Shown here in pieces: positions 3,895 to 32,505 of a stretch of 33,867 nt of DNA. Position numbers and translations under genes: made by a program. The notes beneath the pieces are model-generated. The model had not been told where the DNA came from. It worked only from the letters and a program-made list of their open reading frames with translations, and made no database searches. Source of the DNA: a virus (taxonomy: Duplodnaviria; Heunggongvirae; Uroviricota; Caudoviricetes); the IMG/VR virus record IMGVR_UViG_2778261506_000006. One strand, 5' to 3'. The stretch's first letter is position 1. The number at the start of each line of letters is the position of its first letter.

Positions 3895-4166
3895 GTATTC
3901 GTATTGAAATTGGCGAACGTTATGTCGTTACCAGTGACAGCTTTCAGTTTATTCTCCACGAGAAAAAGAGAGCGGAAAGCGGTAAAAACGCCGGTCAGGA
4001 ATGGCTGTCGGTGGTTGGTTATTACCCGAAATTAAGCCAGCTCGTTTCCGGCCTGATGCATCACGATATTCTGACCGGAAGCGCAAAGTCTTTTGCTGAT
4101 TTAAACGCGCAGGTTGAGCAACTCAGCAAGCGTTGTTCAGAGGTTTTTGGCTCATATGGCAGTTAA
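3891..4166 (+). CDS. Early hypothetical protein (P2 orf83 position)
   Basis: ATG 3891 with SD ggaga; 91 aa. Confidence 0.7.
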   Translation: MSIRIEIGERYVVTSDSFQFILHEKKRAESGKNAGQEWLSVVGYYPKLSQLVSGLMHHDILTGSAKSFADLNAQVEQLSKRCSEVFGSYGS

Positions 4167-6432
4167 AGCCTCCGGGCGTTGTGTCCCTCCGTCAGCATTT
4201 GCCGCAGGCACCGGTAAGACGTTTACCGGTGCTTATGCATGGAACGCGCCACGCGAGGCCGTCGGGCGCGAAAGACCCCTTACACGTGACGAGATGCGTC
4301 AGGTGCAAGGTGTTTTATCCACGATTAACCGCCTGCCTTACTTTTTGCGCTCGCTGTTTACTTCACGCTATGACTACATCCGGCGCAATAAAAGCCCGGT
4401 GCACGGGTTTTATTTCCTCACATCCACTTTTCAGCGTCGTTTATGGCCGCGCATTGAGCGTGTGAATCAGCGCCATGAAATGAACACCGACGCGTCGTTA
4501 CTGTTTCTGGCAGAGCGTGACCACTATGCGCGCCTGCCGGGAATGAATGACAAGGAGCTGAAAAAGTTTGCTGCCCGTATCTCATCGCAGCTTTTCATGA
4601 TGTATGAGGAACTCAGCGATGCCTGGGTGGATGCGCATGGCGAAAAAGAATCGCTGTTTACGGATGAGGCGCAGGCTCACCTGTATGGTCATGTTGCTGG
4701 CGCTGCACGTGCTTTCAATATTTCCCCTCTCTACTGGAAAAAATACCGTAAAGGGCAGATGACCACGAGGCAGGCATATTCTGCCATTGCCCGTCTGTTT
4801 AACGATGAGTGGTGGACTCATCAGCTTAAAGGCCAGCGTATGCGCTGGCATGAGGCGTTACTGATTGCTGTCGGGGAGGTCAATAAAGACCGTTCTCCTT
4901 ATGCCAGTAAACATGCCATTCGTGATGTGCGCGCGCGCCGCCAGGCAAATCTGGAATTTCTTAAATCGTGTGACCTTGAAAACAGGGAAACCGGCGAACG
5001 CATCGACCTTATCAGTAAGGTTATGGGCAGTATTTCTAATCCAGAAATTCGCCGGATGGAGCTGATGAACACCATTGCCGGTATTGAGCGTTACGCCGCC
5101 GCAGAGGGTGATGTGGGGATGTTTATCACGCTGACCGCGCCGTCAAAGTATCACCCGACACGTCAGGTCGGAAAAGGCGAAAGTAAAGCCGTCCAGCTAA
5201 ATCACGGCTGGAACGATGAGGCATTTAATCCAAAGGATGCGCAGCGTTATCTCTGCCGCATCTGGAGCCTGATGCGCACGGCATTCAAGGATAATGATTT
5301 ACAGGTCTACGGTTTGCGTGTCGTCGAGCCACACCACGACGGAACGCCGCACTGGCATATGATGCTTTTTTGTAATCCACGCCAGCGTAACCAGATTATT
5401 GAAATCATGCGTCGCTACGCGCTCAAAGAGGATGGCGACGAAAGAGGAGCTGCGCGAAACCGTTTTCAGGCAAAACATCTTAACCGGGGCGGTGCTGCGG
5501 GATATATCGCGAAATACATTTCAAAAAACATCGACGGCTATGCACTGGATGGTCAGCTCGATAACGACACCGGCAGGCCGCTGAAAGACACTGCAGCGGC
5601 TGTTACCGCATGGGCGTCAACGTGGCGCATCCCGCAATTTAAAACGGTTGGCCTGCCGACAATGGGGGCTTACCGTGAACTACGCAAATTGCCTCGCGGC
5701 GTCAGCATTGCTGATGAGTTTGACGAACGCGTTGAGGCTGCACGTGCCGCCGCAGACAGTGGTGATTTTGCGTTGTATATCAGCGCACAGGGTGGGGCAA
5801 ATGTTCCGCGTGATTGCCAGACTGTCAGAGTCGCCCGTAGCCCGTCGGATGACGTTAACGAGTACGAGGAAGAAGTCGAGAGAGTGGTCGGCATTTACGC
5901 GCCGCATCTCGGCGCGCGTCATATTCATATCACCAGAACGACGGACTGGCGCATTGTGCCGAAAGTTCCGGTCGTTGAGCCTTTGACTTTAAAAAGCGGC
6001 ATCGCCGCGCCTCGGAGTCCTGTCAATAACTGTGGAAAGCTCACCGGTGGTGATACTTCGTTACCGGCTCCCACACCTTCTGAGCACGCCGCAGCAGTGC
6101 TTAATCTGGTTGATGACGGTGTTATCGAATGGAATGACACGGAGGTCGTGAGGGCGCTCAGGGGGGCATTAAAACACGACCTGAGAACACCAAATCGTCA
6201 GCAAAGAAACGGAAGCCCGTTAAAACCACATGAAATTGCACCATCGGCCAGACTGACCCGGTCGGAAAGAATGCAAATTACCCGTATCCGCGTTGACCTT
6301 GCTCAGAACGGTATCAGGCCGCAGCGATGGGAGCTTGAGGCGCTGGCGCGTGGCGCGACCGTAAATTATTACGGGAAATCTTTCAATTATCAGGTCGCTG
6401 ATGAGTGGCCTGGATTTTTGTTACCCATTTGA
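4156..6432 (+). CDS. A: Replication initiation protein A (rolling-circle HUH endonuclease); start uncertain (ATG 4156, or TTG 4147 giving 761 aa, or TTG 4114)
   Basis: About 760 aa; HUH-type motif PHWHMMLF and active-site tyrosine region AGYIAKYISKNIDGY; position after orf83. Confidence 0.88.
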   Translation: MAVKASGRCVPPSAFAAGTGKTFTGAYAWNAPREAVGRERPLTRDEMRQVQGVLSTINRLPYFLRSLFTSRYDYIRRNKSPVHGFYFLTSTFQRRLWPRIERVNQRHEMNTDASLLFLAERDHYARLPGMNDKELKKFAARISSQLFMMYEELSDAWVDAHGEKESLFTDEAQAHLYGHVAGAARAFNISPLYWKKYRKGQMTTRQAYSAIARLFNDEWWTHQLKGQRMRWHEALLIAVGEVNKDRSPYASKHAIRDVRARRQANLEFLKSCDLENRETGERIDLISKVMGSISNPEIRRMELMNTIAGIERYAAAEGDVGMFITLTAPSKYHPTRQVGKGESKAVQLNHGWNDEAFNPKDAQRYLCRIWSLMRTAFKDNDLQVYGLRVVEPHHDGTPHWHMMLFCNPRQRNQIIEIMRRYALKEDGDERGAARNRFQAKHLNRGGAAGYIAKYISKNIDGYALDGQLDNDTGRPLKDTAAAVTAWASTWRIPQFKTVGLPTMGAYRELRKLPRGVSIADEFDERVEAARAAADSGDFALYISAQGGANVPRDCQTVRVARSPSDDVNEYEEEVERVVGIYAPHLGARHIHITRTTDWRIVPKVPVVEPLTLKSGIAAPRSPVNNCGKLTGGDTSLPAPTPSEHAAAVLNLVDDGVIEWNDTEVVRALRGALKHDLRTPNRQQRNGSPLKPHEIAPSARLTRSERMQITRIRVDLAQNGIRPQRWELEALARGATVNYYGKSFNYQVADEWPGFLLPI

Positions 6433-6692
6433 GTAAAAATGCAGCGTGATTTTATATGCCTTTGAATGGATTATGCGAAGCGCCTCTAAGGCAGATGAGG
6501 AGCAATAGCATGCTGAAGTAGAAGGCTAAATTGTATTGAATCGCTAGCATGTAATTTAAGGCAGCTATTTGATTCGAGTCATAAAAGAGCATCTATTTCG
6601 GCTAATAAAACCATTGCGAGTGACCTTTTGTCGAAGCATAATTCATCTCGAGCGAAGTCTTGCTAGTCTTTCATCGGAATGATGACAGGCGC

Positions 6693-6722
6693 AAAAAAAC
6701 CACCCTGGCAGGTGGTTTTTTT
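6693..6722. terminator. Bidirectional rho-independent terminator (A7-ccaccc-tggca-ggtgg-T7)
   Basis: GC stem flanked by A-run upstream and T-run downstream; downstream of gene A (+) and of the small minus-strand ORF. Confidence 0.7.
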
Positions 6723-6734
6723 GTTTGAAGCATA

Positions 6735-6848
6735 CTAAAGAATAATACTTACATGGATATTACTGACGTTTACTGACAAACCACTTGGACTACCATATGG
6801 ATAGCCAAAGAGGGCCAGAACGAGAATGCAGTAATAGCACTTCTTCAT
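6735..6848 (-). CDS. Putative 37-aa hydrophobic small protein (MKKCYYCILVLALFGYPYGSPSGLSVNVSNIHVSIIL)
   Basis: ATG at 6848 (minus) preceded by AGGAGGAG; ends just before the bidirectional terminator; not in the supplied track (below 60 aa). Confidence 0.35.
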   Translation of the reverse strand: MKKCYYCILVLALFGYPYGSPSGLSVNVSNIHVSIIL

Positions 6849-7418
6849 ATCTCCTCCTGTAAGCAGAGGGCAATTTCCGCCGATATATGCGCTTCTAAGG
6901 CGGAGTTACTATTTAGCGAAGTCTTGCCCTGAAATAATGCTCTGTTTAAACGCAAAGTGATCTGGCATATCACCGAACAGAGAGCCTGAACAACACAACA
7001 TATAGTATGTCGTTGTTTCTGGTTGCATTTTATGTTGTGTAATACTGGTTTTGCATCAAGGATGTTTGAGCTTTTTTTGATATAGCTCAAAGTAAAAAGC
7101 AGGGACTACGGATGATAAGGTATTGAAAGCAATGTAAATTTTTTAAAGTTATTGGTGGCTAAAAAATGCACGATTTCAATATGGCGGACTTAAATAAGCA
7201 ATTAAAAAAGTCATAAATATCACTAAAATCATGGTGTTACGTTTTTTGTGGGAGCTGCGGTGACGCTTAAGTTGATTTGTCATTAAATAAGCCGTGCATG
7301 CAACAAGTGAATGTTTTTGCATGCGTCGGGGATGCCCGTTCCCGCTGCTTGCGGTCAGAGCTGGTGCGGATCCATAGTATCTATGCAACTGCATTAAAAC
7401 CGCCACATGAAGCGGGCG

Positions 7419-7437
7419 GGCGAGGCGGGGAAAGCAC
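7419..7437. other. cos: cos site: 19-nt P2 cohesive-end sequence GGCGAGGCGGGGAAAGCAC
   Basis: Exact match to the P2/P4 cohesive end as I remember it; lies between A and Q as expected for a P2 prophage. Confidence 0.65.
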
Positions 7438-7473
7438 CGCGCGTAAGATAAACAGAAGAGCGAAGGATTATGG

Positions 7474-7528
7474 TTGAGTATTTGTGTTTTTGTACATATG
7501 ATAAAAAGGTGTTTACGCTTAAAAACAC
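7474..7528 (+). promoter_or_regulatory. Candidate sigma70 promoter for the cargo cassette (-35 TTGAGT 7474-7479, 17-bp spacer, -10 TATGAT 7497-7502) with inverted repeat GTGTTT-N8-AAACAC (7509-7528) before the RBS
   Basis: Read from sequence; hexamers and spacing are near consensus; untested. Confidence 0.3.
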
Positions 7529-7543
7529 ATCAAAGGAGATGAT

Positions 7544-8845
7544 ATGGAAAATATAAAGATTGATAAGTTTCTCACTATTCAAAAAGTTGATATTCCTCTT
7601 AAGAAAGTGAATATATTTATTGGGCCTCAGGCACAGGGGAAAAGTGTCATTGCAAAGCTAATAAAATATTTTAAAGATTATCCTATGGATATACTACGAG
7701 CTTCAACAGAGGGTAAAACTAAAAGAGACATATTGAAGGAGCAAAAGAATAAGTTTAGTAAAATTTTCCCTCAGCAGTATTGGGCTGATGATGAGTTTTT
7801 TATTGAGTATAGTAATAAGCACTATTGGGTGCGGATTACTAATCGAAAAAATAGCAAAGGGTCATTGAAAATAGCCCTTTCTGAGAATTTAACGAAGACG
7901 ATTGCTAAACTTCGTTTGATTGTACGAAAGGATTTAGATGAAAATATTGAGAATTCACTTGCAGAAAGCGTTACGAGAAGACGTAAACGCGGAATTGAAC
8001 ATGAATTGCGAGTATGTCTTTCTCTAGGATTGTTTTCAGAACCAGAAACAAAGCTTGAAAGTGTTTTTTATATCCCCGCAGGGCGCTCTTTTTTTGCTAA
8101 TTTGCAAAAAAATGTGTTTTCATTTTTATCCAGTAGTATAGAAATTGACTACTTTTTGACAGAGTTTGGTTCTCTGTATGAACAAACAAAAAAATTATTT
8201 AACCAAGATTACATGATTAGGATGCTTAGGGGGGCTGTGCCTCAACATGTTAATAAACTTGTGGAGGAGTTGATTTGCGGAAAATATATAACAGAAAAGG
8301 GTGAGGATTTTATTCGTCATGCTGCTAAGAAGACGAATCTTAACAACTCGAGCTCAGGGCAGCAAGAAGCGTTACCAATGGCTTTAATGTTATCCTCATG
8401 GCCGTATTTACAGTCTATGACTAGTAAGAGTTTTATTATTGAGGAGCCGGAGGCTCATCTGTTTCCTTCTGCCCAAGCAAAAGTTGTATCTTTAATAGCC
8501 TCAGCGTATAACCAAGCAGAAAGCTATTGTAGCTATACAATAACAACACATAGTCCATATATTCTAAGTGCCTTCAATAATTTGATTCAAGCAGGTAATG
8601 CATTGAAGTGTATTAAGGGCAAGAATAATACCGATATCGAACGCTTATATAAGCTTGTTCCAGAGTCTCAAATTATTGATTTTGATGATGTGACAGCTTA
8701 TATGGTTAATGCTGGGAAAGTGACGGAAATACTGGATTCCGAACTAAATATATTAGATGCGAATGAAATAGATAGGATTTCCTCTATTTTTTCAGAGACT
8801 TTTGATGCATTGATTGATATCGAATATTCGGCTACTGTGAATTAG
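7544..8845 (+). CDS. AAA15/ABC-type ATPase (OLD/AriA/PtuA-like N-terminal ATPase fold), 433 aa; candidate defence-system ATPase
   Basis: Walker A GPQAQGKS, signature-like LSSGQQEALPMALML, Walker B/D-loop FIIEEPEAHLFP, H-loop TTHSPYIL; strong SD AAGGAG 5 nt before ATG; AT-rich relative to phage core. Confidence 0.8.
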   Translation: MENIKIDKFLTIQKVDIPLKKVNIFIGPQAQGKSVIAKLIKYFKDYPMDILRASTEGKTKRDILKEQKNKFSKIFPQQYWADDEFFIEYSNKHYWVRITNRKNSKGSLKIALSENLTKTIAKLRLIVRKDLDENIENSLAESVTRRRKRGIEHELRVCLSLGLFSEPETKLESVFYIPAGRSFFANLQKNVFSFLSSSIEIDYFLTEFGSLYEQTKKLFNQDYMIRMLRGAVPQHVNKLVEELICGKYITEKGEDFIRHAAKKTNLNNSSSGQQEALPMALMLSSWPYLQSMTSKSFIIEEPEAHLFPSAQAKVVSLIASAYNQAESYCSYTITTHSPYILSAFNNLIQAGNALKCIKGKNNTDIERLYKLVPESQIIDFDDVTAYMVNAGKVTEILDSELNILDANEIDRISSIFSETFDALIDIEYSATVN

Positions 8846-8853
8846 GTGATTGA

Positions 8854-9291
8854 ATGTGTAAAAATTGCAAAGGAAAAACAAAAAATAAAATCATTGTGCT
8901 ATCTGATAAAGGAACGTCAACGCAATTGTCAGTCACAAATGATAATGAGTTGGAAGTTGAGCATAAGTTAATAGATGGTTGCGCTATTGTTGTTGGAGAG
9001 CGGTGTGATCATTATTTGAAGATTTATAACAATCAGGATGTTTCACATCTTTTTGTTGAACTTAAAGGAAGTGATGTTGAAAAAGCTGTTAAACAGATAG
9101 TGACAACTTTAAAGTCAGGTGTGATTAATGTAGGTGCTAAAGAAAAAAAACATGGTGCTATTGTTAGCACTAGGAATCCGCTAAACTCAACAGAAACCAA
9201 TAGGTTAAAGAAGAAAATTCTTTTGAGTGACGGAGTGAATTTGCATTTCTATAAAATGAAGGCGCAGCAAAAAATAACTTCTTTTACATGA
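8854..9291 (+). CDS. Small 145-aa partner protein, possible nuclease-like effector (Cys pairs, D-H...NN...H and D...ELK motifs); function unknown
   Basis: ATG 8854 eight nt after ATPase stop with SD AGGTGA; internal repeated motif I(I/L)(V/L)LSD; no homolog recognised by eye. Confidence 0.7.
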   Translation: MCKNCKGKTKNKIIVLSDKGTSTQLSVTNDNELEVEHKLIDGCAIVVGERCDHYLKIYNNQDVSHLFVELKGSDVEKAVKQIVTTLKSGVINVGAKEKKHGAIVSTRNPLNSTETNRLKKKILLSDGVNLHFYKMKAQQKITSFT

Positions 9292-9304
9292 AGTGTTCTC
9301 TTGT

Positions 9305-9328
9305 ACAGGCATGCATTTGCATGCCTGT
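9305..9328 (+). terminator. Perfect inverted repeat acaggcatgca / tgcatgcctgt (11-bp arms, 2-nt centre) after the cassette; probable terminator with weak U-tract
   Basis: Read from sequence; followed by cgtgtaatctttt. Confidence 0.45.
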
Positions 9329-9394
9329 CGTGTAATCTTTTACACTATATTTGTGTTGGTTCTAATCTTGTTATGTGTTTGTTTCGGTGATGGG

Positions 9395-10414
9395 TCATAA
9401 TGAATAAGTTCGAAAGCGAAATACATCTTCGCCAACCCAACAGTTAATTTCTTTACATCGCTCTTGGAGGAACGTTAGCTCGTTGCGTACAAAGACTTGT
9501 GCTGCTTTTGTTACATCTCCAAATCCTCCTGTGTTGTTGGGCATCATTCCTATCATTTGGGGAGGCACGCGATGAGCACTCATTAGATCTTCAGCACTTG
9601 CTTTTTTGATATTAAAAAAATCGTCCTTCGTTGCCACTTCACTGAGCGGGATAATTTTAATGCCGTCGGCTTTCCCCTGCGGGGCATAGAGAAACAGATT
9701 TTTAAAGTTATTGCGGCCTTTCGACTTAACCATGTTTTCGCGAAGCATTTCGATATCGTTGCGATCCTGCACGGCATCAGTGACGTACATGATGTATCCG
9801 GCATGAGCGCCGTTTTCGTAATACTTGCGGCGGAACAGCGTGGCCGACTCATTCAGCCAGGCAGAGTTAAGGGCGCTGAGATATTCGGGCAGGCCGTACA
9901 GCTCCTGATTAATATCCGGCTCCAGCAGGTGAAACACGGAACCGGGCGCGAAGGCTGTCGGCTCGTTGAAGGACGGCACCCACCAGTAAACATCCTCTTC
10001 CACACCACGGCGGGTATATTTTGCCGGTGAGGTTTCCAGCCTGATAACTTTACCGGTGGTGCTGTAACGCTTTTCCAGAAACGCATTACCGAACACCAGA
10101 AAATCCAGCACAAAGCGGCTGAAATCCTGCTGGGAAAGCCACGGATGCGGGATAAATGTCGACGCCAGAATATTGCGTTTGACGTAAATCGGGGAGCTGT
10201 GATGCACGGCAGCACGCAGGCTTTTTGCCAGACCGGTAAAGCTGACCGGTGGCTCATACCATCTGCCGTTACTGATGCACTCGACGTAATCCAGAATGTC
10301 ACGGCGGTCGAGCACCGGCACCGGCTCACCAAAGGTGAATGCCTCCATTTTCGGGGCGCTGGCGGTCATTGTTTTTGCCGCAGGTTGCGGTGTTTTCCCT
10401 TTTTTCTTGCTCAT
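9395..10414 (-). CDS. Q: Portal protein Q
   Basis: 339 aa; first gene leftward of P; overlapping start/stop with P; matches P2 Q. Confidence 0.92.
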   Translation of the reverse strand: MSKKKGKTPQPAAKTMTASAPKMEAFTFGEPVPVLDRRDILDYVECISNGRWYEPPVSFTGLAKSLRAAVHHSSPIYVKRNILASTFIPHPWLSQQDFSRFVLDFLVFGNAFLEKRYSTTGKVIRLETSPAKYTRRGVEEDVYWWVPSFNEPTAFAPGSVFHLLEPDINQELYGLPEYLSALNSAWLNESATLFRRKYYENGAHAGYIMYVTDAVQDRNDIEMLRENMVKSKGRNNFKNLFLYAPQGKADGIKIIPLSEVATKDDFFNIKKASAEDLMSAHRVPPQMIGMMPNNTGGFGDVTKAAQVFVRNELTFLQERCKEINCWVGEDVFRFRTYSL

Positions 10415-21052: not shown

Positions 21053-23239
21053 ATGAGCACAAAATTCAAAACCGTTATCACCACTGCCGGTGCAGCAAAG
21101 CTGGCAGCGGCAACCGCGCCGGGAGGGCGGAAGGTCAACATTACCACGATGGCCGTCGGGGATGGCGGTGGTAAATTGCCTGTCCCGGATGCCGGACAGA
21201 CCGGGCTTATCCACGAAGTCTGGCGACATGCGCTGAACAAAATCAGCCAGGACAAACGAAACAGTAATTATATTATCGCAGAGCTGGTTATTCCGCCGGA
21301 GGTGGGCGGTTTCTGGATGCGTGAGCTTGGCCTGTACGATGATGCTGGAACGTTAATTGCCGTGGCGAACATGGCTGAAAGTTATAAGCCAGCTCTTGCC
21401 GAAGGCTCAGGGCGTTCGCAGACCTGCCGCATGGTCATCATCGTCAGCAGTGTGGCCTCAGTGGCGCTGACCATTGACACCACAACGGTGATGGCAACGC
21501 AGGATTACGTTGATGACAAAATTGCAGAACATGAACAGTCACGACGTCACCCGGACGCCTCGCTGACCGCCAAAGGTTTTACTCAGTTAAGCAGTGCGAC
21601 CAACAGCACGTCTGAAACACTCGCCGCAACACCAAAAGCGGTAAAAGCAGCATATGACCTTGCTAACGGGAAATACACTGCACAGGACGCCACCACCGCG
21701 CGAAAAGGCCTTGTCCAGCTCAGTAGCGCCACCAACAGCGATTCTGAAACGCTTGCGGCAACGCCAAAGGCGGTTAAGACAGCGTATGACCTTGCTAACG
21801 GGAAATACACTGCACAGGATGCCACCACAGCGCGAAAAGGTCTTGTCCAGCTCAGTAGCGCCACCAACAGTGATTCTGAAACGCTGGCTGCAACACCAAA
21901 AGCGGTGAAGTCTGCCTATGACAATGCTGAAAAACGTCTTCAGAAAGATCAGAACGGTGCGGATATTCCGGGAAAGGATACCTTCACGAAAAATATCGGT
22001 GCCTGTCGTGCTTATAGCGGCGCTTTGAGCACTGAAGCCGGAAACTGGACAACCGCTCAGTTTATTGAATGGCTGGATTCCCGTGGTGCATTTAATCATC
22101 CGTACTGGATGTGCAAAGGCTCCTGGTCATATGCAAATAACAAAATCATTACGGATACCGGATGTGGTGATATCCACCTGGCTGGTTGTGTCGTCGAGGT
22201 CATGGGAACTAAATCTGCAATCACTATCCGAGTGACCACGCCGACAACATCAAGTGGTGGCGGTACAACCAGCGCGCAATTCACTTACATAAATCATGGG
22301 GACGGCTACTCCCCCGGCTGGCGTCGTGACTGGAATCGTCAGGGCGACTCAATGACCGGAACGATTAATCAGGATGGCGGAAGCCAGAATGCCTATATGT
22401 CTACGGCCTTATGTTCAGGCACCAGAGGCGGCAAAAAATATCTCAGAAAGTTTCGTGGTGGAGAAGGAGATACTATCTGGCATGAAACAGTTCAGGGCGG
22501 GGTAATTCGCTGGGCGACAGGAAACAATGACGCTCAGGAAGAATTATCACTCAGCTCCGCTTATGGTCTCCGTTCAAGAGGTGAAATTACATCACTCAGT
22601 GCTAATGGTCTGCGCATTGCTTATGGCAATTATGGATTCTTTATCAGGAATGATGGCGGCAGCACTTATTTTATGTTGACTAAATCAGGTGACAGATTAG
22701 GTACTTATAATAATTTAAGACCACTGATTATAAATGATGCCACGGGTGCTGTATCAATGGGGCATGGCCTGAGTGTTACTGGTGATATTGTCTCAAGTAC
22801 CAAAGTACGTGCCGGTAGCGGGAAAAAGTTCACGGTCAGCAGCAGCAATACATCCACGAAGGAAGCCGCATTCAATTTGTGGGGAAACTCAAGTCGTCCT
22901 GTGGTGGCTGAATTAGGTGATGATGCAGGCTGGCATTTTTACAGTCAGAGAAATACAGATAACAGCATCACTTTTGCTGTTAACGGGCAGGTATCACCAT
23001 CTAACTATAGTAATTTTGATTCACGCTATGTCCGGGATATCCGGCTTGGTGGTGCTGCCACATACAAACCTGCGAACAATGGCATGACATGGACACATCA
23101 GGCACCGTCCGGGTGTGTATATTCCGGCATTATTGTTCAGGATACCGGCTCAAACTCTGCCGATAACATTGGTGGCGTATATTACAGACCGGTGCAGAAA
23201 TACATTAACGGGACTTGGTATAACGTGGCGCAGGTATAA
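21053..23239 (+). CDS. H: Tail fibre protein H (728 aa) with conserved N-terminus, internal 44-aa tandem repeats and a divergent AT-rich C-terminal receptor-binding region
   Basis: Position after I, followed by chaperone G; repeat QLSSATNS.SETLAATPKAVK.AYDLANGKYTAQDATTARKGLV occurs about 2.6 times. Confidence 0.9.
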   Translation: MSTKFKTVITTAGAAKLAAATAPGGRKVNITTMAVGDGGGKLPVPDAGQTGLIHEVWRHALNKISQDKRNSNYIIAELVIPPEVGGFWMRELGLYDDAGTLIAVANMAESYKPALAEGSGRSQTCRMVIIVSSVASVALTIDTTTVMATQDYVDDKIAEHEQSRRHPDASLTAKGFTQLSSATNSTSETLAATPKAVKAAYDLANGKYTAQDATTARKGLVQLSSATNSDSETLAATPKAVKTAYDLANGKYTAQDATTARKGLVQLSSATNSDSETLAATPKAVKSAYDNAEKRLQKDQNGADIPGKDTFTKNIGACRAYSGALSTEAGNWTTAQFIEWLDSRGAFNHPYWMCKGSWSYANNKIITDTGCGDIHLAGCVVEVMGTKSAITIRVTTPTTSSGGGTTSAQFTYINHGDGYSPGWRRDWNRQGDSMTGTINQDGGSQNAYMSTALCSGTRGGKKYLRKFRGGEGDTIWHETVQGGVIRWATGNNDAQEELSLSSAYGLRSRGEITSLSANGLRIAYGNYGFFIRNDGGSTYFMLTKSGDRLGTYNNLRPLIINDATGAVSMGHGLSVTGDIVSSTKVRAGSGKKFTVSSSNTSTKEAAFNLWGNSSRPVVAELGDDAGWHFYSQRNTDNSITFAVNGQVSPSNYSNFDSRYVRDIRLGGAATYKPANNGMTWTHQAPSGCVYSGIIVQDTGSNSADNIGGVYYRPVQKYINGTWYNVAQV
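21584..21922 (+). repeat. Tandem repeat inside H: 132-bp unit in about 2.6 copies (21584-21715, 21716-21847, partial 21848-21922)
   Basis: Near-identical nucleotide units read directly; in-frame. Confidence 0.85.
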
Positions 23240-23242
23240 TTT

Positions 23243-23770
23243 ATGCAGCATTTGATAAATATAACGGCAGGTAATCCAAAAACGGTTGAACAATATCAAT
23301 TGACAAAAGACTTTGATGTTGTCTGGTTTTTTTCAGAAGATGGTAAGAACTGGTACGAAGAACAAAAGTATTTTGCTGATGACACGCTAAAAATAGCGTA
23401 CGACAAAGATAATATCATCCGCTATGTGGAAAAGGATGCGACAGCTATCAGACCGGATGGATTAAGTGTTGTTGAAGTGGCGGATATTACTGCTAACCGG
23501 CGGGCGAACATTTCAGGGAACTGGATGTTTAAGGACGGCAAAGTGATTAAACGCATTTATACGGCAGAGGAATTGCAGCAGCAGGCAGAAAACCGGAAAG
23601 CCAGACTTCTTGCAGATGCTGAATTCGTGATTTTGCCGCTGGAGCGCGCGGTCAGACTGAACATGGCAACAGATGAGGAGCGTAGCCGACTGGAAGCATG
23701 GGAACGCTACAGCGTTCTGGTCAGTCGTGTGGATCCTGCAAATCCTGAATGGCCGGAAATGCCGCAATAA
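23243..23770 (+). CDS. G: Tail fibre assembly chaperone G (175 aa)
   Basis: Size and position as P2 gpG; AT-rich like the H C-terminus. Confidence 0.88.
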
Positions 23771-23827
23771 GTTGTATGAGCTCTGGTGTGAGCTAACGTA
23801 TCTATAGCACTGAAGTCTAGGGGGGTT

Positions 23828-23847
23828 AGGGCTGCAACAGCAGCCCT
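23828..23847. other. 8-bp inverted repeat agggctgc-aaca-gcagccct between convergent G and kinase genes
   Basis: Read from sequence; no U-tract on either side, so only a possible terminator. Confidence 0.3.
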
Positions 23848-23955
23848 GTGCCAAGAGCTGTCCCTATAAACTTCACTATGTGTTAATTAATAAGGTGCTG
23901 AGCATCATATTTAACTAAAGCATTAATAAAAATTAATATTAATGGGCACAAGCTA

Positions 23956-25266
23956 TTAACTAAAAATTTCGCTCAACCCAGTGACAAATATTTCTCTGAT
24001 CTTACGGCGGAAAATATCACCAAAGTCAGAGTTTGAAACATCCGTGCGCCAGATAGTTTTAGCAACACCCTGCCGATCTTCTGAAAAGACAGTAATGATG
24101 AGTTCATCAGCAATAATTTGAAAGTCAAATGTAGGTCGGAAACGAGGATACGAAGTACCAGGGGTATCAAATCCTATGTTTAACCAAGAATGACGGGGCT
24201 CAGATTTATAGTATCCAGTTTCAACTCCAGACAGATGACCTCCGATCTCTTCTATGATGTTATTACGAACTGAAATTATTTCGCTTACAGCTTCCCTGAT
24301 TTTACTCATGTAAACACTATTTATCTCAGCACCTTGAGCTTCCAACCTTTTTTTGATTTCTAAAAGAATCTCACCATCCGCCAATGTAGGTTTATTTTCG
24401 CTCATCCTCTTCAACTCCTTTCTCAACTCTTGTACCGTCTGAAATCTACTATTCAATAGCGGTGAAAAACCACGGTCAAACAATGCAAGCATTGAAAGTG
24501 CCCAACCATTAGTAGCGGCATGAATACTTTCCGATACTCCATCGCGTTGGTGAGGTCGACGCCCAGTCTCAGATTCTTCTAAAACATACGGGCTTTTTCC
24601 TGTTAATACGTAAAATAAAATCCCTACTACAAAGGTAATATCGCTTCGAGGATCTCGTTTATTAGGACTGTCTGGCGCAAGTTCATTGAGCCTTAAGAAA
24701 CGATTGCCTAGCTCTTGGCCATTATCAGTAGCATGAGCGTTCTTATCTTGAGGTTGCCATGCGAGACCGAAATCTACCAATACAGCATCAGCCGGGTTAT
24801 TACACCGGAGTATAATATTATCAGGTTTGATATCTCTGTGAATGCCATCACGAGAATGATAGTATTCGACTATATCCAACAGGCGATCTATCATATCAAC
24901 CGCATCTTGAAATGACATAGCCCCATTTTCCTCTATGTACTCACGTAATGTTGGGCCTTCAACTATTTCTGTAACTAAGTAAAGTTTGTAATTCATTTGT
25001 TCATAACGATGGCAATTACTTTCTATAAGAGATGGAATTCCCGGATGTTCATAGGTATAGAGAGCGACTGCTTCGCGATACATACGAGCTCGTCGCTCAG
25101 GGTCTTTCTGGCTTTTCAATACTTTTAAAAATGCTCTCATGTCAGAACGAACCACTGGACACGCCACGCCTTGGCCACCGCTTTTCTTGTTACCATCCGC
25201 TACCCAGCCTGCCGCCTTCGCATCCAATTTGTCATTCCACACGCCACCAACCATTTTCTCCCCCAT
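23956..25266 (-). CDS. Hanks-type Ser/Thr protein kinase with about 180-aa C-terminal domain of unknown function; cargo at the P2 Z/fun position
   Basis: Catalytic loop HRDIKPDNIIL and DFGLA motif in N-terminal half; antisense to flanking late genes; AT-rich; ATG 25266 (alternative ATG 4 codons in). Confidence 0.85.
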   Translation of the reverse strand: MGEKMVGGVWNDKLDAKAAGWVADGNKKSGGQGVACPVVRSDMRAFLKVLKSQKDPERRARMYREAVALYTYEHPGIPSLIESNCHRYEQMNYKLYLVTEIVEGPTLREYIEENGAMSFQDAVDMIDRLLDIVEYYHSRDGIHRDIKPDNIILRCNNPADAVLVDFGLAWQPQDKNAHATDNGQELGNRFLRLNELAPDSPNKRDPRSDITFVVGILFYVLTGKSPYVLEESETGRRPHQRDGVSESIHAATNGWALSMLALFDRGFSPLLNSRFQTVQELRKELKRMSENKPTLADGEILLEIKKRLEAQGAEINSVYMSKIREAVSEIISVRNNIIEEIGGHLSGVETGYYKSEPRHSWLNIGFDTPGTSYPRFRPTFDFQIIADELIITVFSEDRQGVAKTIWRTDVSNSDFGDIFRRKIREIFVTGLSEIFS

Positions 25267-25507
25267 AATTTTGTTAATAAGTTCCTTTTGCAGTGCATCA
25301 TTATTTCACATATTACCAAATTTTTAGAATGTGAATGTATAGCTGATTGAATCGACCTACTTTTGATTGGCATTTTTCAATAGGATATATGTGAAATTAA
25401 TAACAGCTGCCAACTTTCGCTCCTCGCTCAAAGCAGACTGTCAGATTTGATGGCTTTTGGGCTAAGTAAATTGTCAGTCGGAAAATGAGTGAGTACAAAT
25501 CAGGACT

Positions 25508-25534
25508 GGCGGGCGAATTGCCCGCCTTTTCTTT
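25508..25534 (+). terminator. Rho-independent terminator ggcgggc-gaatt-gcccgcc followed by ttttcttt, upstream of FI
   Basis: 7-bp GC stem plus T-tract on plus strand. Confidence 0.6.
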
Positions 25535-25630
25535 ATCTGTTGTTTCATCCACTGACCAGCCAGGTCAAATAGCGTCTCATGCTCTGCACAACAGAAAATA
25601 GTTGCACCCATTAACCACGGAGTTAAACGG
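25535..25630 (+). promoter_or_regulatory. Expected Ogr-dependent late promoter region for the FI operon
   Basis: Position by analogy with P2 P_F; precise activator site not resolved. Confidence 0.35.
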
Positions 25631-26821
25631 ATGAGTGACTATCATCACGGCGTGCAGGTGCTGGAGATTAACGACGGCACCCGCGTCATTTCCACCGTAT
25701 CCACCGCCATTGTTGGCATGGTCTGCACGGCCAGCGATGCGGATGCGGAAATCTTCCCCCTCAATAAACCGGTGCTGATTACCAATGTGCAGAGCGCAAT
25801 TGCAAAGGCCGGTAAAAAAGGCACGCTGGCGGCGTCGTTACAGGCCATCGCTGACCAGTCAAAACCGGTCACCGTTGTTGTGCGCGTGGAAGACGGCACC
25901 GGCGACGACGAGGAAACGAAACTCGCGCAGACCGTTTCCAATATTATCGGCACCACCGACGAAAACGGTCAGTACACCGGACTGAAAGCCCTGATGGGGG
26001 CTGAGTCGGTTACCGGCGTTAAACCGCGCATTCTCGGCGTACCGGGACTGGACACCAAAGAGGTCGCCGTCGCACTGGCATCGGTATGCCAGGAACTGAA
26101 TGCCTTCGGGTATATCAGCGCATGGGGTTGTAAAACCATTTCCGAGGTGAAAGCCTACCGCCAGAATTTCAGCCAGCGTGAGCTGATGGTTATCTGGCCG
26201 GATTTCCTCGCATGGGATACGGTTACCAGTACCACCGCCACCGCGTATGCCACCGCCCGTGCGCTGGGTCTGCGCGCTAAAATCGACCAGGAGCAGGGCT
26301 GGCATAAAACGCTGTCCAACGTCGGGGTGAACGGTGTTACCGGCATCAGTGCATCCGTCTTCTGGGATTTGCAGAAGCCAGGCACTGATGCTGACCTGCT
26401 GAACGAGGCAGGCGTCACAACGCTGGTTCGCCGCGACGGTTTCCGTTTCTGGGGTAACCGTACCTGCTCTGATGACCCGCTGTTCCTCTTTGAAAGCTAC
26501 ACACGCACCGCGCAGGTACTGGCCGACACGATGGCTGAGGCGCACATGTGGGCTATTGATAAGCCCATCACCGCAACGCTGATTCGCGACATCATTGACG
26601 GCATCAATGCCAAATTCCGTGAACTGAAAAACAACGGTTATATCGTGGATGGCACATGCTGGTTCAGCGAAGAATCCAACGATGCGGAAACCCTCAAGGC
26701 CGGAAAACTGTATATCGACTACGACTATACCCCGGTGCCTCCTCTCGAAAACCTGACCCTGCGCCAGCGTATTACTTCCAGATACTTGGCAAGTCTGGTC
26801 ACTTCGGTTAACAGCAATTAA
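25631..26821 (+). CDS. FI: Tail sheath protein FI (396 aa)
   Basis: Size and position identical to P2 gpFI. Confidence 0.93.
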   Translation: MSDYHHGVQVLEINDGTRVISTVSTAIVGMVCTASDADAEIFPLNKPVLITNVQSAIAKAGKKGTLAASLQAIADQSKPVTVVVRVEDGTGDDEETKLAQTVSNIIGTTDENGQYTGLKALMGAESVTGVKPRILGVPGLDTKEVAVALASVCQELNAFGYISAWGCKTISEVKAYRQNFSQRELMVIWPDFLAWDTVTSTTATAYATARALGLRAKIDQEQGWHKTLSNVGVNGVTGISASVFWDLQKPGTDADLLNEAGVTTLVRRDGFRFWGNRTCSDDPLFLFESYTRTAQVLADTMAEAHMWAIDKPITATLIRDIIDGINAKFRELKNNGYIVDGTCWFSEESNDAETLKAGKLYIDYDYTPVPPLENLTLRQRITSRYLASLVTSVNSN

Positions 26822-32334: not shown

Positions 32335-32361
32335 AAAAAATAAGCCCGTGTAAGGGAGATT
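32335..32361. repeat. attR: attR core: second copy of the 27-bp att direct repeat
   Basis: Identical to 478-504. Confidence 0.85.
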
Positions 32362-32505
32362 ACACAGGCTAAGGAGGTGGTTCCTGGTACAGCTAGCATT
32401 TTATGGGTTATGTTTTTCAGCGAAACGGATGATAACCTTAATAAATGCAGCTGTATGTGATCGGTTTCTAAGAATTTTCCATCCGGGAAAAATAATCGAA
32501 ATTAA

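What the first reader, a model, noticed from the sequence alone, without database searches (positions are those of the whole stretch)
23771..25630. Antisense Ser/Thr kinase with unknown C-terminal domain at the P2 Z/fun hotspot
Between tail-fibre chaperone G and sheath gene FI, where P2 carries Z/fun, this prophage has a 436-aa minus-strand gene. It carries a clear Hanks-type kinase core (HRDIKPDNIIL catalytic loop, DFGLA) and an about 180-aa C-terminal extension with no motif I recognise. The region is AT-rich and transcribed against the late operons. Phage-encoded kinases at such hotspots have been linked to abortive infection (Stk2-type, and a kinase-containing single-gene PD-T4 system as I remember it), so this may be a known family, but the C-terminal sensor or effector domain could be new.
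Basis: partly seen in the sequence, partly recalled or inferred. Interest (0 to 1): 0.75.

Follow-up and report, generated by a model that had tools for sequence, protein, structure and literature searches.

The report
PD-T4-6 defence kinase in P2 prophage
This is a real protein-kinase gene carried as cargo by a P2-like prophage, and it is the already published single-gene anti-phage system PD-T4-6, so it is a rediscovery; how the kinase senses and stops phage is still unknown.

Summary
A 436-aa minus-strand ORF (23956..25266) lies between tail-fibre assembly gene G and sheath gene FI of a P2-like prophage. It sits in a 1.6-kb block of 40% GC, and its Hanks-kinase catalytic residues are all intact.

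It is not new. The whole protein, C-terminus included, matches PADLOC model PD-T4-6 (E = 3.7e-174). The cloning primers published for the type PD-T4-6 (Vassallo et al. 2022) match this window exactly and give the same 1,722-bp amplicon. Their mutagenesis primer matches apart from the K48 codon, so the published loss-of-defence mutant is the catalytic lysine, K48A. The same paper already names this site as a second P2 defence hotspot.

The C-terminal domain is about 140 aa, not 180. It has no Pfam family and no significant solved or viral structural match. It folds confidently as an alpha+beta sandwich, with weak similarity to FP-dimerisation and frataxin folds. It occurs almost only fused to this kinase, and it diverges faster than the kinase domain.

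My inference is that it is a sensor or dimerisation module controlling activation-loop (T180) autophosphorylation. Trigger, substrates and abortive versus direct action remain open.

Verdict: already known, low interest.

The parts
23956..25266 (-). PD-T4-6 gene: 436-aa Ser/Thr kinase plus C-terminal domain (stop codon included)
   Evidence: ORF list; PADLOC PDLC04046 PD-T4-6 E = 3.7e-174, residues 8-435 against profile positions 3-424 of 427; same 1,311-nt ORF length as the type gene RRM76169.1
24394..25182 (-). Hanks-type kinase domain, residues about 29-291
   Evidence: Pfam Pkinase E = 3.3e-22; PknB structures E = 2e-20 over residues 45-297; K48, E65, H143-R144-D145, K147, N150 and D165 invariant in 67 of 67 homologues, G167 likewise and F166 in 66 of 67; AF2 pLDDT mostly above 90
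25123..25125 (-). Codon of catalytic lysine K48 (beta3 'FLKV')
   Evidence: The published PD-T4-6_sdm primer matches 25098-25149 (-) with exactly 3 mismatches, which turn AAA into GCG = K48A. The paper states that its four site-directed mutants lost protection
24727..24729 (-). Codon of T180 in the activation loop, a candidate autophosphorylation site
   Evidence: T in 66 of 67 homologues; aligns with PknB T171 in the ungapped stretch after DFG; lies in the low-pLDDT loop 170-190. Its role is inferred
23959..24378 (-). C-terminal alpha+beta domain, residues 297-436 (two helices, a five- to six-stranded antiparallel sheet, a C-terminal helix)
25267..25445 (-). 179-nt upstream region that holds the native promoter
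   Evidence: The forward cloning primer maps to 25427-25445 (-). The fragment was cloned into a promoterless low-copy vector 'with its native promoter' and protected. The consensus scan found no -35/-10 pair here
25310..25318 (-). Candidate extended -10 element, TGgTAATAT, about 45 nt upstream of the ATG
   Evidence: Read directly from the sequence. Inference only, not tested
23814..25417 (.). Cargo block that replaces the Z/fun-region genes of reference P2
   Evidence: blastn against P2 (L007): homology ends at 23813 and resumes at 25418. 40.3% GC. Full-length copies in 5 of 5,426 complete E. coli genomes and none among the phage records
23724..25445 (.). Exact equivalent of the DNA fragment shown experimentally to confer defence
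   Evidence: Both published cloning primers match with 0 mismatches. The amplicon is 1,722 bp, equal to the published cloned region 62441-64162, and the ORF offsets of 179 and 232 nt mirror the published ones
25508..25526 (+). Terminator-like hairpin plus T-run in conserved P2 sequence, on the far side of the cargo
   Evidence: Scan result; lies in the P2-conserved block. It is the only predicted + strand terminator between G and FI, so late-operon read-through would run antisense across the kinase gene. That last step is inferred
23828..23847 (-). 8-bp stem-loop 3' of the kinase ORF, with no U-tract
   Evidence: Read from the sequence and located by script. Function unknown
23243..23770 (+). 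Left flank: tail-fibre assembly gene G
   Evidence: Pfam Caudo_TAP E = 4.5e-34
25631..26821 (+). Right flank: tail sheath gene FI
   Evidence: Pfam Phage_sheath_1, Phage_sheath_1C and Gp18_domIII_N

Best explanation
The gene is PD-T4-6, the single-gene anti-phage system that Vassallo et al. (2022) isolated by selection on T4. It is carried as cargo in the G-FI (Z/fun) hotspot of a P2-like prophage.

Shown by others, with the link to this locus established here: the 1,722-bp fragment equivalent to 23724-25445, on a low-copy promoterless vector, was validated as a defence system after selection on T4. The paper states that its four site-directed mutants lost protection, and the PD-T4-6 mutant is catalytic-lysine K48A.

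Shown here: the kinase has every catalytic residue and is an RD kinase. A threonine (T180) is conserved in 66 of 67 homologues at the position of PknB pThr171. The C-terminal 140 aa form an independent alpha+beta sandwich that occurs almost only fused to this kinase. That domain diverges about twice as fast as the kinase domain. No partner gene is conserved next to it.

Inferred mechanism: the lysogen expresses the protein from its own promoter, antisense to the late genes, in an inactive state. During T-even infection the C-terminal domain binds a phage-made cue, or changes its self-association. This allows trans-autophosphorylation at T180. The active kinase then phosphorylates host and/or phage proteins and blocks phage development. 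By analogy with Stk2 and 933W Stk this is probably at the cost of the infected cell.
For: Identity: PADLOC PD-T4-6 E = 3.7e-174 over the full length. The type gene has the same 1,311-nt ORF. Both cloning primers match exactly and give the same 1,722-bp amplicon. The mutagenesis primer matches except for the K48 codon. E. coli alleles of this protein differ at no more than 2 residues.

Defence function and kinase dependence: the paper's text and tables.

[quoted passage not shown] The primers for PD-T7-3 also map onto the same conserved flanks, and those listed for PD-T4-8 are identical to the PD-T4-6 pair.

Active RD kinase: invariant K48, E65, HRD, K147, N150, D165 and G167. T180 is conserved in 66 of 67 and aligns with PknB T171.

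C-terminal domain: confident fold; restricted to this family, 249 clusters among 1.84 billion representatives; 20% identity against 45% for the kinase domain among distant homologues; best fold matches are protein-interaction or dimerisation modules, with no enzyme fold near the top.

Single gene and mobile: Serratia, Achromobacter and Aeromonas homologues at 69-93% identity sit in different contexts next to GmrSD, a transposase, RT+SLATT, Fic and UvrD, and their upstream neighbours are unrelated.
Confidence: 0.8

Rival explanations
1. Direct immunity rather than abortive infection: the kinase phosphorylates and inactivates a specific T-even phage protein, and the infected cell survives.
For: Nine of the 21 systems in the source paper gave direct immunity. 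Nothing in the text held assigns PD-T4-6 to either class. A kinase needs no toxic effector. The fast-evolving C-terminal domain could be a substrate-docking module for a phage protein.
Against: The two characterised precedents for kinase-based defence, Stk2 and 933W Stk, act by abortive infection (titles and citations seen; details from my own knowledge). The 'tab' selection used was designed to recover abortive systems as well.
Confidence: 0.3
2. The C-terminal domain is the effector (toxic or inhibitory) and the kinase domain only switches it on by autophosphorylation.
For: K48A abolishing defence fits this as well as the main model. The domain is private to the family and carries invariant R407 and near-invariant E388.
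Against: There is no enzymatic fold among the top structural matches, which are FP dimerisation domains, Mediator scaffold domains and frataxin. Only two positions are conserved, which is poor for an active site. The domain is the fastest-evolving part, which is more typical of recognition modules.
Confidence: 0.1
3. The kinase mainly serves the prophage's own life cycle or lysogenic conversion, as the Pf KKP kinase-phosphatase module does, and protection against T4 is a side effect.
For: It sits inside the late-gene region, antisense, where late read-through could silence it. The Pf KKP module shows that prophage kinases can regulate prophage activity (abstract).
Against: The same protein at 69-93% identity occurs outside prophages, in chromosomal and defence-island contexts. 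The cloned gene alone, without the prophage, was validated as a defence system. Only 5 of about 1,024 E. coli genomes with this P2 flank carry it, so P2 does not need it.
Confidence: 0.07
4. A generic housekeeping Ser/Thr kinase mislabelled by an over-sensitive PADLOC model.
For: PADLOC 'PD-T4-6' calls in Streptococcus thermophilus are the core PASTA kinase and were discarded as wrong predictions by one group. Many PD-T4-6 sub-models match only the kinase domain here.
Against: Here the match is full-length, including the family-specific C-terminus, and the published primers map exactly. There are no PASTA repeats: NCBIfam PknB_PASTA_kin scores 95.9 bits against a cut-off of 450. The gene is present in only 5 of 5,426 complete E. 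coli genomes, always as prophage cargo.
Confidence: 0.02

Closest known systems
PD-T4-6 (Vassallo et al. 2022, Nat Microbiol; type gene RRM76169.1 from E. coli UMB0949)
   Same: Same ORF length, same P2 G-FI position, same flanking primer sites, same 1,722-bp functional fragment, same catalytic lysine, and a full-length PADLOC match. This is the same system.
   Different: At most one or two amino-acid substitutions: E. coli alleles vary at K175E and P293S. The host prophage differs in other genes, for example the length of tail fibre H.
Stk2 of Staphylococcus epidermidis (Depardieu et al. 2016)
   Same: A stand-alone Hanks-type Ser/Thr kinase that protects against phage. The source paper cites it as the analogue. 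Activation by a phage protein and abortive infection through broad phosphorylation are known for Stk2 (my own knowledge), and that is the working model here.
   Different: No sequence comparison with Stk2 was possible with the tools at hand. The C-terminal domain found here is restricted to the PD-T4-6 family. Trigger and substrates of PD-T4-6 are unknown.
Stk of prophage 933W (Friedman et al. 2011)
   Same: A kinase encoded by an E. coli prophage and activated by a heterologous infecting phage to cause abortive infection (title seen).
   Different: It is described as a tyrosine kinase, sits in a lambdoid prophage rather than a P2 one, and excludes HK97 rather than T-even phages (my own knowledge). 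Homology was not tested.
PknB/StkP-type PASTA kinases
   Same: They are the closest solved kinase domains (E about 2e-20). HRD and DFG align without gaps, and T180 aligns with PknB T171.
   Different: There is no transmembrane segment and there are no PASTA repeats. NCBIfam scores 95.9 bits against a cut-off of 450. The C-terminus is unrelated. The gene is accessory and mobile rather than core.
P2 Z/fun and the other cargo of the G-FI hotspot (PD-T4-8, PD-T7-3)
   Same: Same insertion site and same orientation against the late operons. The primers for PD-T7-3 lie on the same conserved flanks, and the PD-T4-8 primers are listed as identical to the PD-T4-6 pair.
   Different: The proteins are unrelated: the paper's tables give DUF4263 for PD-T4-8 and HEPN for PD-T7-3.

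Membership tests
PD-T4-6 | Full-length similarity to the type protein, including the non-kinase C-terminus | tested here: met
   PADLOC PDLC04046: E = 3.7e-174, residues 8-435 against profile positions 3-424 of 427
PD-T4-6 | Collinear with the experimentally validated cloned fragment | tested here: met
   Published primers match with 0 mismatches at 23724-23744 (+) and 25427-25445 (-). Amplicon 1,722 bp, equal to the published 62441-64162. ORF 1,311 nt in both
PD-T4-6 | Catalytic lysine whose mutation abolishes defence | tested here: met
   K48 is present. The published mutagenesis primer matches except for AAA to GCG at this codon. K48 is invariant in 67 of 67 homologues
PD-T4-6 | Single-gene system with no conserved partner | tested here: met
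   There is no other credible ORF in the cargo block. Neighbours of the Serratia, Achromobacter and Aeromonas homologues are unrelated to one another
PD-T4-6 | Amino-acid identity to RRM76169.1 | not testable with these tools
   The type sequence could not be fetched. E. coli alleles of the 90% cluster differ from this protein at 0-2 positions. The UMB0949 contig was not among the exact-match places
PD-T4-6 | Protects E. coli against T4 | not testable with these tools
   Experimental. Reported for the type fragment: selected on T4 and listed as validated
Hanks-type (eukaryotic-like) Ser/Thr kinase, catalytically competent | Gly-rich loop, VAIK Lys, alphaC Glu, HRDxKxxN, DFG, APE-like motif | tested here: met
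   G30-G31-Q-G33, K48, E65, H143-R-D-I-K-P-D-N150, D165-F-G, A197-P-D. Pfam Pkinase 79.6 bits against a cut-off of 31.7
PASTA/PknB housekeeping kinase | Transmembrane segment plus extracellular PASTA repeats; core gene | tested here: not met
   NCBIfam PknB_PASTA_kin 95.9 bits against a cut-off of 450, kinase domain only. The C-terminus has no Pfam hit. Present in 5 of 5,426 genomes
Stk2-type defence kinase | Sequence homology beyond the generic kinase fold; activation by a phage protein; abortive infection | not tested
   No Stk2 sequence or model was available in the libraries used. The resemblance is functional and comes from the literature
FP domain (Fbxo7/PI31) or frataxin-like fold, for the C-terminal domain | Significant structural superposition with sequence or motif support | tested here: inconclusive

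The most novel reading that the evidence does not exclude
The roughly 140-aa C-terminal alpha+beta domain is a previously undescribed phage-sensing fold, private to the PD-T4-6 kinase family. It would bind a T-even phage protein directly and convert that binding into kinase activation by dimerisation and T180 trans-autophosphorylation. This would give a compact one-protein sensor-kinase immune receptor whose specificity is set by a fast-evolving domain.
Probability: 0.35. Interest if true: 0.45.

Novelty: already known. Interest (0 to 1): 0.15.

Why it matters
As a discovery it adds nothing, because the gene, its defence phenotype, its dependence on the catalytic lysine and the hotspot it sits in were published in 2022.

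There is some residual value. First, the mechanism of PD-T4-6 appears uncharacterised in the literature I could search. The analysis here gives testable handles: T180, E388 and R407, and a domain boundary near residue 292-297.

Second, the C-terminal domain profile separates genuine PD-T4-6 from the housekeeping kinases that PADLOC over-calls. That could clean up many genome surveys.

Third, the position of the only predicted late-operon terminator beyond the cargo suggests how P2 might silence such cargo during its own lytic growth.

Tried and rejected
1. A word-index homology search with the C-terminus alone returned only four fragments. It was replaced by a full-length search and an exhaustive profile search.
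2. The afdb50 fold library was not available.
3. Foldseek against PDB and BFVD with the C-terminal model gave nothing at E <= 0.001. A profile against PDB sequences gave nothing below E = 0.1. Pfam gave nothing.
4. I looked for a conserved partner gene upstream of close homologues. The Serratia 178-aa and Achromobacter 220-aa neighbours are unrelated, so the two-gene idea was rejected.
5. The exact-sequence contig look-up, meant to find the type strain UMB0949, returned three other E. coli assemblies and one Logan sequencing-run contig. Primer mapping solved the identity question instead.
6. Four literature searches for a PD-T4-6 mechanism found only genome surveys. PMC12409345 does not mention the system.
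7. The sigma-70 consensus scan found no promoter in the 179-nt upstream region. An extended -10 was read by eye only.
8. A TGT-N12-ACA search for Ogr-type late-promoter dyads gave fewer matches than chance and none upstream of FI, so I drew no conclusion on the late promoter upstream of FI.
9. The Rfam scan found no RNA family in or near the cargo.
Full report
**1. The observation**

The window carries an ATG-initiated ORF of 436 codons on the minus strand at 23956..25266. Its product contains HRDIKPDN at residues 143-150 and DFG at 165-167.

It matches Pfam Pkinase (E = 3.3e-22, 79.6 bits against a cut-off of 31.7). It also matches solved PknB kinase domains (E about 2e-20, residues 45-297).

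The left neighbour, 23243..23770 (+), is a Caudo_TAP tail-fibre assembly protein. The right neighbour, 25631..26821 (+), is a tail sheath protein.

The first 25 kb of the window align at 96-97% identity to Peduovirus genomes over about 75% of that stretch. Reference P2 has two minus-strand genes at the same place.

Homology to P2 ends at 23813 and resumes at 25418. The cargo is therefore 23814-25417. It has 40.3% GC against 54-56% in the flanks.

Three details need correcting:
- The finding's interval includes 213 nt of conserved P2 sequence upstream of FI.
- The non-kinase C-terminus is about 140-145 aa, not about 180.
- RefSeq annotates the start at M5 (432 aa), whereas the published system and the homologue alignment start at M1.

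**2. What it is**

A scan of PADLOC-DB gives a full-length match to a PD-T4-6 model: PDLC04046, E = 3.7e-174, residues 8-435 against profile positions 3-424 of 427. The match therefore covers the "unknown" C-terminus.

PD-T4-6 is one of 21 systems recovered by Vassallo et al. (PMC9519451) in a functional selection of E. coli fosmid libraries on T4. Their Table S2 gives the type gene as RRM76169.1 from strain UMB0949. The ORF is 62620-63930 (1,311 nt, the length found here) and the cloned region is 62441-64162.

Their Table S8 lists the primers, and they map onto this window as follows:
- The gene-specific part of PD-T4-6-F matches 25427-25445 (-) with no mismatch.
- PD-T4-6-R matches 23724-23744 (+) with no mismatch.
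- The amplicon is 1,722 bp, exactly the published length.
- The ORF sits 179 and 232 nt from the fragment ends, as published.
- The 52-nt mutagenesis primer matches 25098-25149 (-) with three mismatches. These convert the K48 codon AAA to GCG.

The paper states that its four site-directed mutants lost protection, so the PD-T4-6 mutant is the catalytic beta3 lysine, K48A. Table S7 labels it "K101A" and labels the PD-T4-4 mutant "K48A". I read this as a swap, because PD-T4-4 is the two-protein system and the PD-T4-6 primer itself encodes K48A.

The exact 436-aa protein is in NCBI from three other E. coli assemblies, always between the sheath gene and the tail-fibre assembly gene. E. coli alleles differ from it only at K175E and P293S. 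I could not fetch RRM76169.1 itself, so identity to the type protein is inferred to be at least 99.5% rather than measured.

**3. The hotspot**

The PD-T7-3 primers map to 23708-23726 and 25605-25622 of this window. The PD-T4-8 primers are listed as identical to those of PD-T4-6. Both facts fit those three systems sharing these conserved flanks.

About 1,024 of 5,426 complete E. coli genomes carry the conserved right flank. Only 5 carry the kinase cargo, at 99.8% identity. None of 50,697 phage records carries it.

**4. Anatomy of the protein**

I aligned 67 full-length homologues at 32-93% identity, from Enterobacteriaceae, Achromobacter, Aeromonas, Rhodocyclaceae, Paraburkholderia, Methylosinus, cyanobacteria and metagenomes.
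- K48, E65, H143, R144, D145, K147, N150, D165 and G167 are invariant.
- T180 is Thr in 66 of 67.
- A family-specific stretch, E185-L-G-N-R-F-L-R-L-x-E195, and P238-H-Q-R241 are invariant or nearly so.

HRD makes this an RD kinase. In the ungapped alignment to PknB, T180 falls on PknB T171. To my knowledge T171 is one of the two activation-loop autophosphorylation sites of PknB.

AlphaFold2 with this alignment gives pLDDT 88.4 and pTM 0.71. The only weak internal stretch is at residues 170-190, the activation loop.

**5. The C-terminal domain**

Residues 292-436 modelled alone give pLDDT 93.3 and pTM 0.84. The fold is two helices, a five- to six-stranded antiparallel sheet and a C-terminal helix.

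Searches for relatives gave little:
- There is no Pfam family.
- A 27-sequence profile finds no PDB chain below E = 0.1.
- Foldseek finds nothing at E <= 0.001 in PDB (best 0.084) or in BFVD.

These matches are alpha+beta two-layer sandwiches used for protein-protein contacts, and no enzyme fold ranks near the top.

The same profile, searched exhaustively against 1.84 billion cluster representatives, finds only 249 proteins at E <= 0.001. In nearly all of them the domain lies at about residues 290-430 of a protein of about 430 aa. The rest are a variant of about 560 aa, or fragments consistent with these two forms. The domain is thus private to this kinase family.

Among 60 distant homologues the kinase domain keeps 45% identity and the C-terminal domain 20%. 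Only R407 is invariant. E388 and Gly at position 386 (Ala in this protein) are nearly so.

**6. Genomic behaviour**

- The 93%-identical Serratia marcescens protein is chromosomal, between a LysR regulator and an HD-domain gene.
- The 75%-identical Achromobacter protein lies next to a transposase and a GmrSD-type gene.
- The 69%-identical Aeromonas protein lies in an island with UvrD, RT+SLATT and Fic genes.
- The genes immediately upstream are unrelated to one another.

The gene therefore moves on its own between mobile and defence contexts. This matches the single-gene status given in the paper and contradicts a housekeeping role.

**7. How it most likely works**

Shown by Vassallo et al., with the link to this locus established here:
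- The fragment equivalent to 23724-25445, in a promoterless low-copy vector, was validated as a defence system after selection on T4. The 179 nt upstream of the ATG therefore hold a working promoter.
- By the paper's general statement about its four mutants, K48A abolishes protection.

Inferred:
- The protein is made in the lysogen in an inactive state.
- The fast-evolving C-terminal sandwich recognises an infection cue, or controls self-association.
- This permits trans-autophosphorylation at T180, as in PknB-type RD kinases.
- The active kinase then phosphorylates host and/or phage proteins and stops phage development.

By analogy with Stk2 and 933W Stk (citations seen) I favour abortive infection. 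The text held does not say which class PD-T4-6 falls in, so direct immunity remains a live rival.

One further inference concerns regulation. The only + strand terminator-like element between G and FI (25508-25526) lies in conserved P2 sequence beyond the cargo. Late-operon read-through would therefore run antisense across the kinase gene. This could damp the kinase during P2's own lytic growth.

**8. Comparison with what is known, and novelty**

This is the PD-T4-6 system itself, so the finding is already known.

Four searches of the held literature found no study of its trigger, substrates or C-terminal domain. They found only genome surveys.

Some of those surveys show that PADLOC "PD-T4-6" calls on core PASTA kinases are false. 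The C-terminal domain is the feature that distinguishes true members.

**9. Verdict**

Interest is low (0.15). The remaining open question is mechanistic, and the residues and domain boundary above make it directly testable.

Noticed in passing
window 6433-9394 (ORFs 7544..8845 + and 8854..9291 +): The other P2 hotspot, between the replication gene (4114..6432) and the portal gene (9395..10414), carries AT-rich cargo of 33-41% GC. It holds a 433-aa AAA_15/AriA-like ATPase (PADLOC candidate PDC-M29A, 2.3e-31, partial; AriA 3e-25) and a 145-aa protein with no Pfam family (PDC-M29B, 1.6e-4). This looks like a two-gene ATPase-based candidate defence system that matches no validated model well.
   Followed up: partly
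window 6433-7543: A 1.1-kb AT-rich stretch upstream of that ATPase has no ORF longer than 81 aa and no Rfam match. It could be a long leader, a decayed gene or an unrecognised RNA.
   Followed up: partly
window 32338-32423 (-): The CyaR/RyeE sRNA gene (Rfam 100.7 bits, E = 3.3e-19) lies just beyond the last prophage gene. This marks the right-hand junction of the prophage with the host chromosome.
   Followed up: no
window 23708-23744 and 25427-25445, 25605-25622: Published primers for PD-T7-3 map onto the same conserved flanks as the PD-T4-6 primers, and the primers listed for PD-T4-8 are identical to the PD-T4-6 pair. This fits these being the three systems the paper places at this second P2 hotspot. 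The flanks could serve as universal primers to survey its cargo.
   Followed up: yes
Vassallo et al. 2022, Supplementary Table S7 versus S8: Table S7 lists 'PD-T4-4 (K48A)' and 'PD-T4-6 (PD-T4-6B K101A)', but the PD-T4-6_sdm primer encodes K48A of this single protein. The two labels look swapped. The PD-T4-4_sdm primers also look like copies of the PD-T4-3 ones.
   Followed up: yes
window 25508-25526 (+); also 25474..25611 (-): A GC-rich hairpin with a T-run lies in P2-conserved DNA on the far side of the cargo from gene G. Several phage records annotate a 45-aa 'hypothetical protein' on the opposite strand across it, which is probably spurious.
   Followed up: partly
homologues P0057, P0065, P0071, P0074 and others (about 560-580 aa): A sub-family carries a further 130-140 residues or so after the shared C-terminal domain. 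That extra region was not examined.
   Followed up: no
window 21053..23239 (+), tail fibre H: The H protein contains three near-identical tandem copies of a segment of about 45 aa (…SSATNS.SETLAATPKAVK.AYDLANGKYTAQDATTARKGLVQL…). Its length (728 aa) differs from the 772 aa in other lysogens that carry the same kinase.
   Followed up: no
PADLOC PD-T4-6 models in general: Most of the PD-T4-6 sub-models listed match only the kinase domain of this protein. Two papers show such calls on core PASTA kinases in Streptococcus thermophilus. The high PD-T4-6 frequencies reported in genome surveys are therefore probably inflated. Requiring the C-terminal domain (alignment A3) would fix this.
   Followed up: partly
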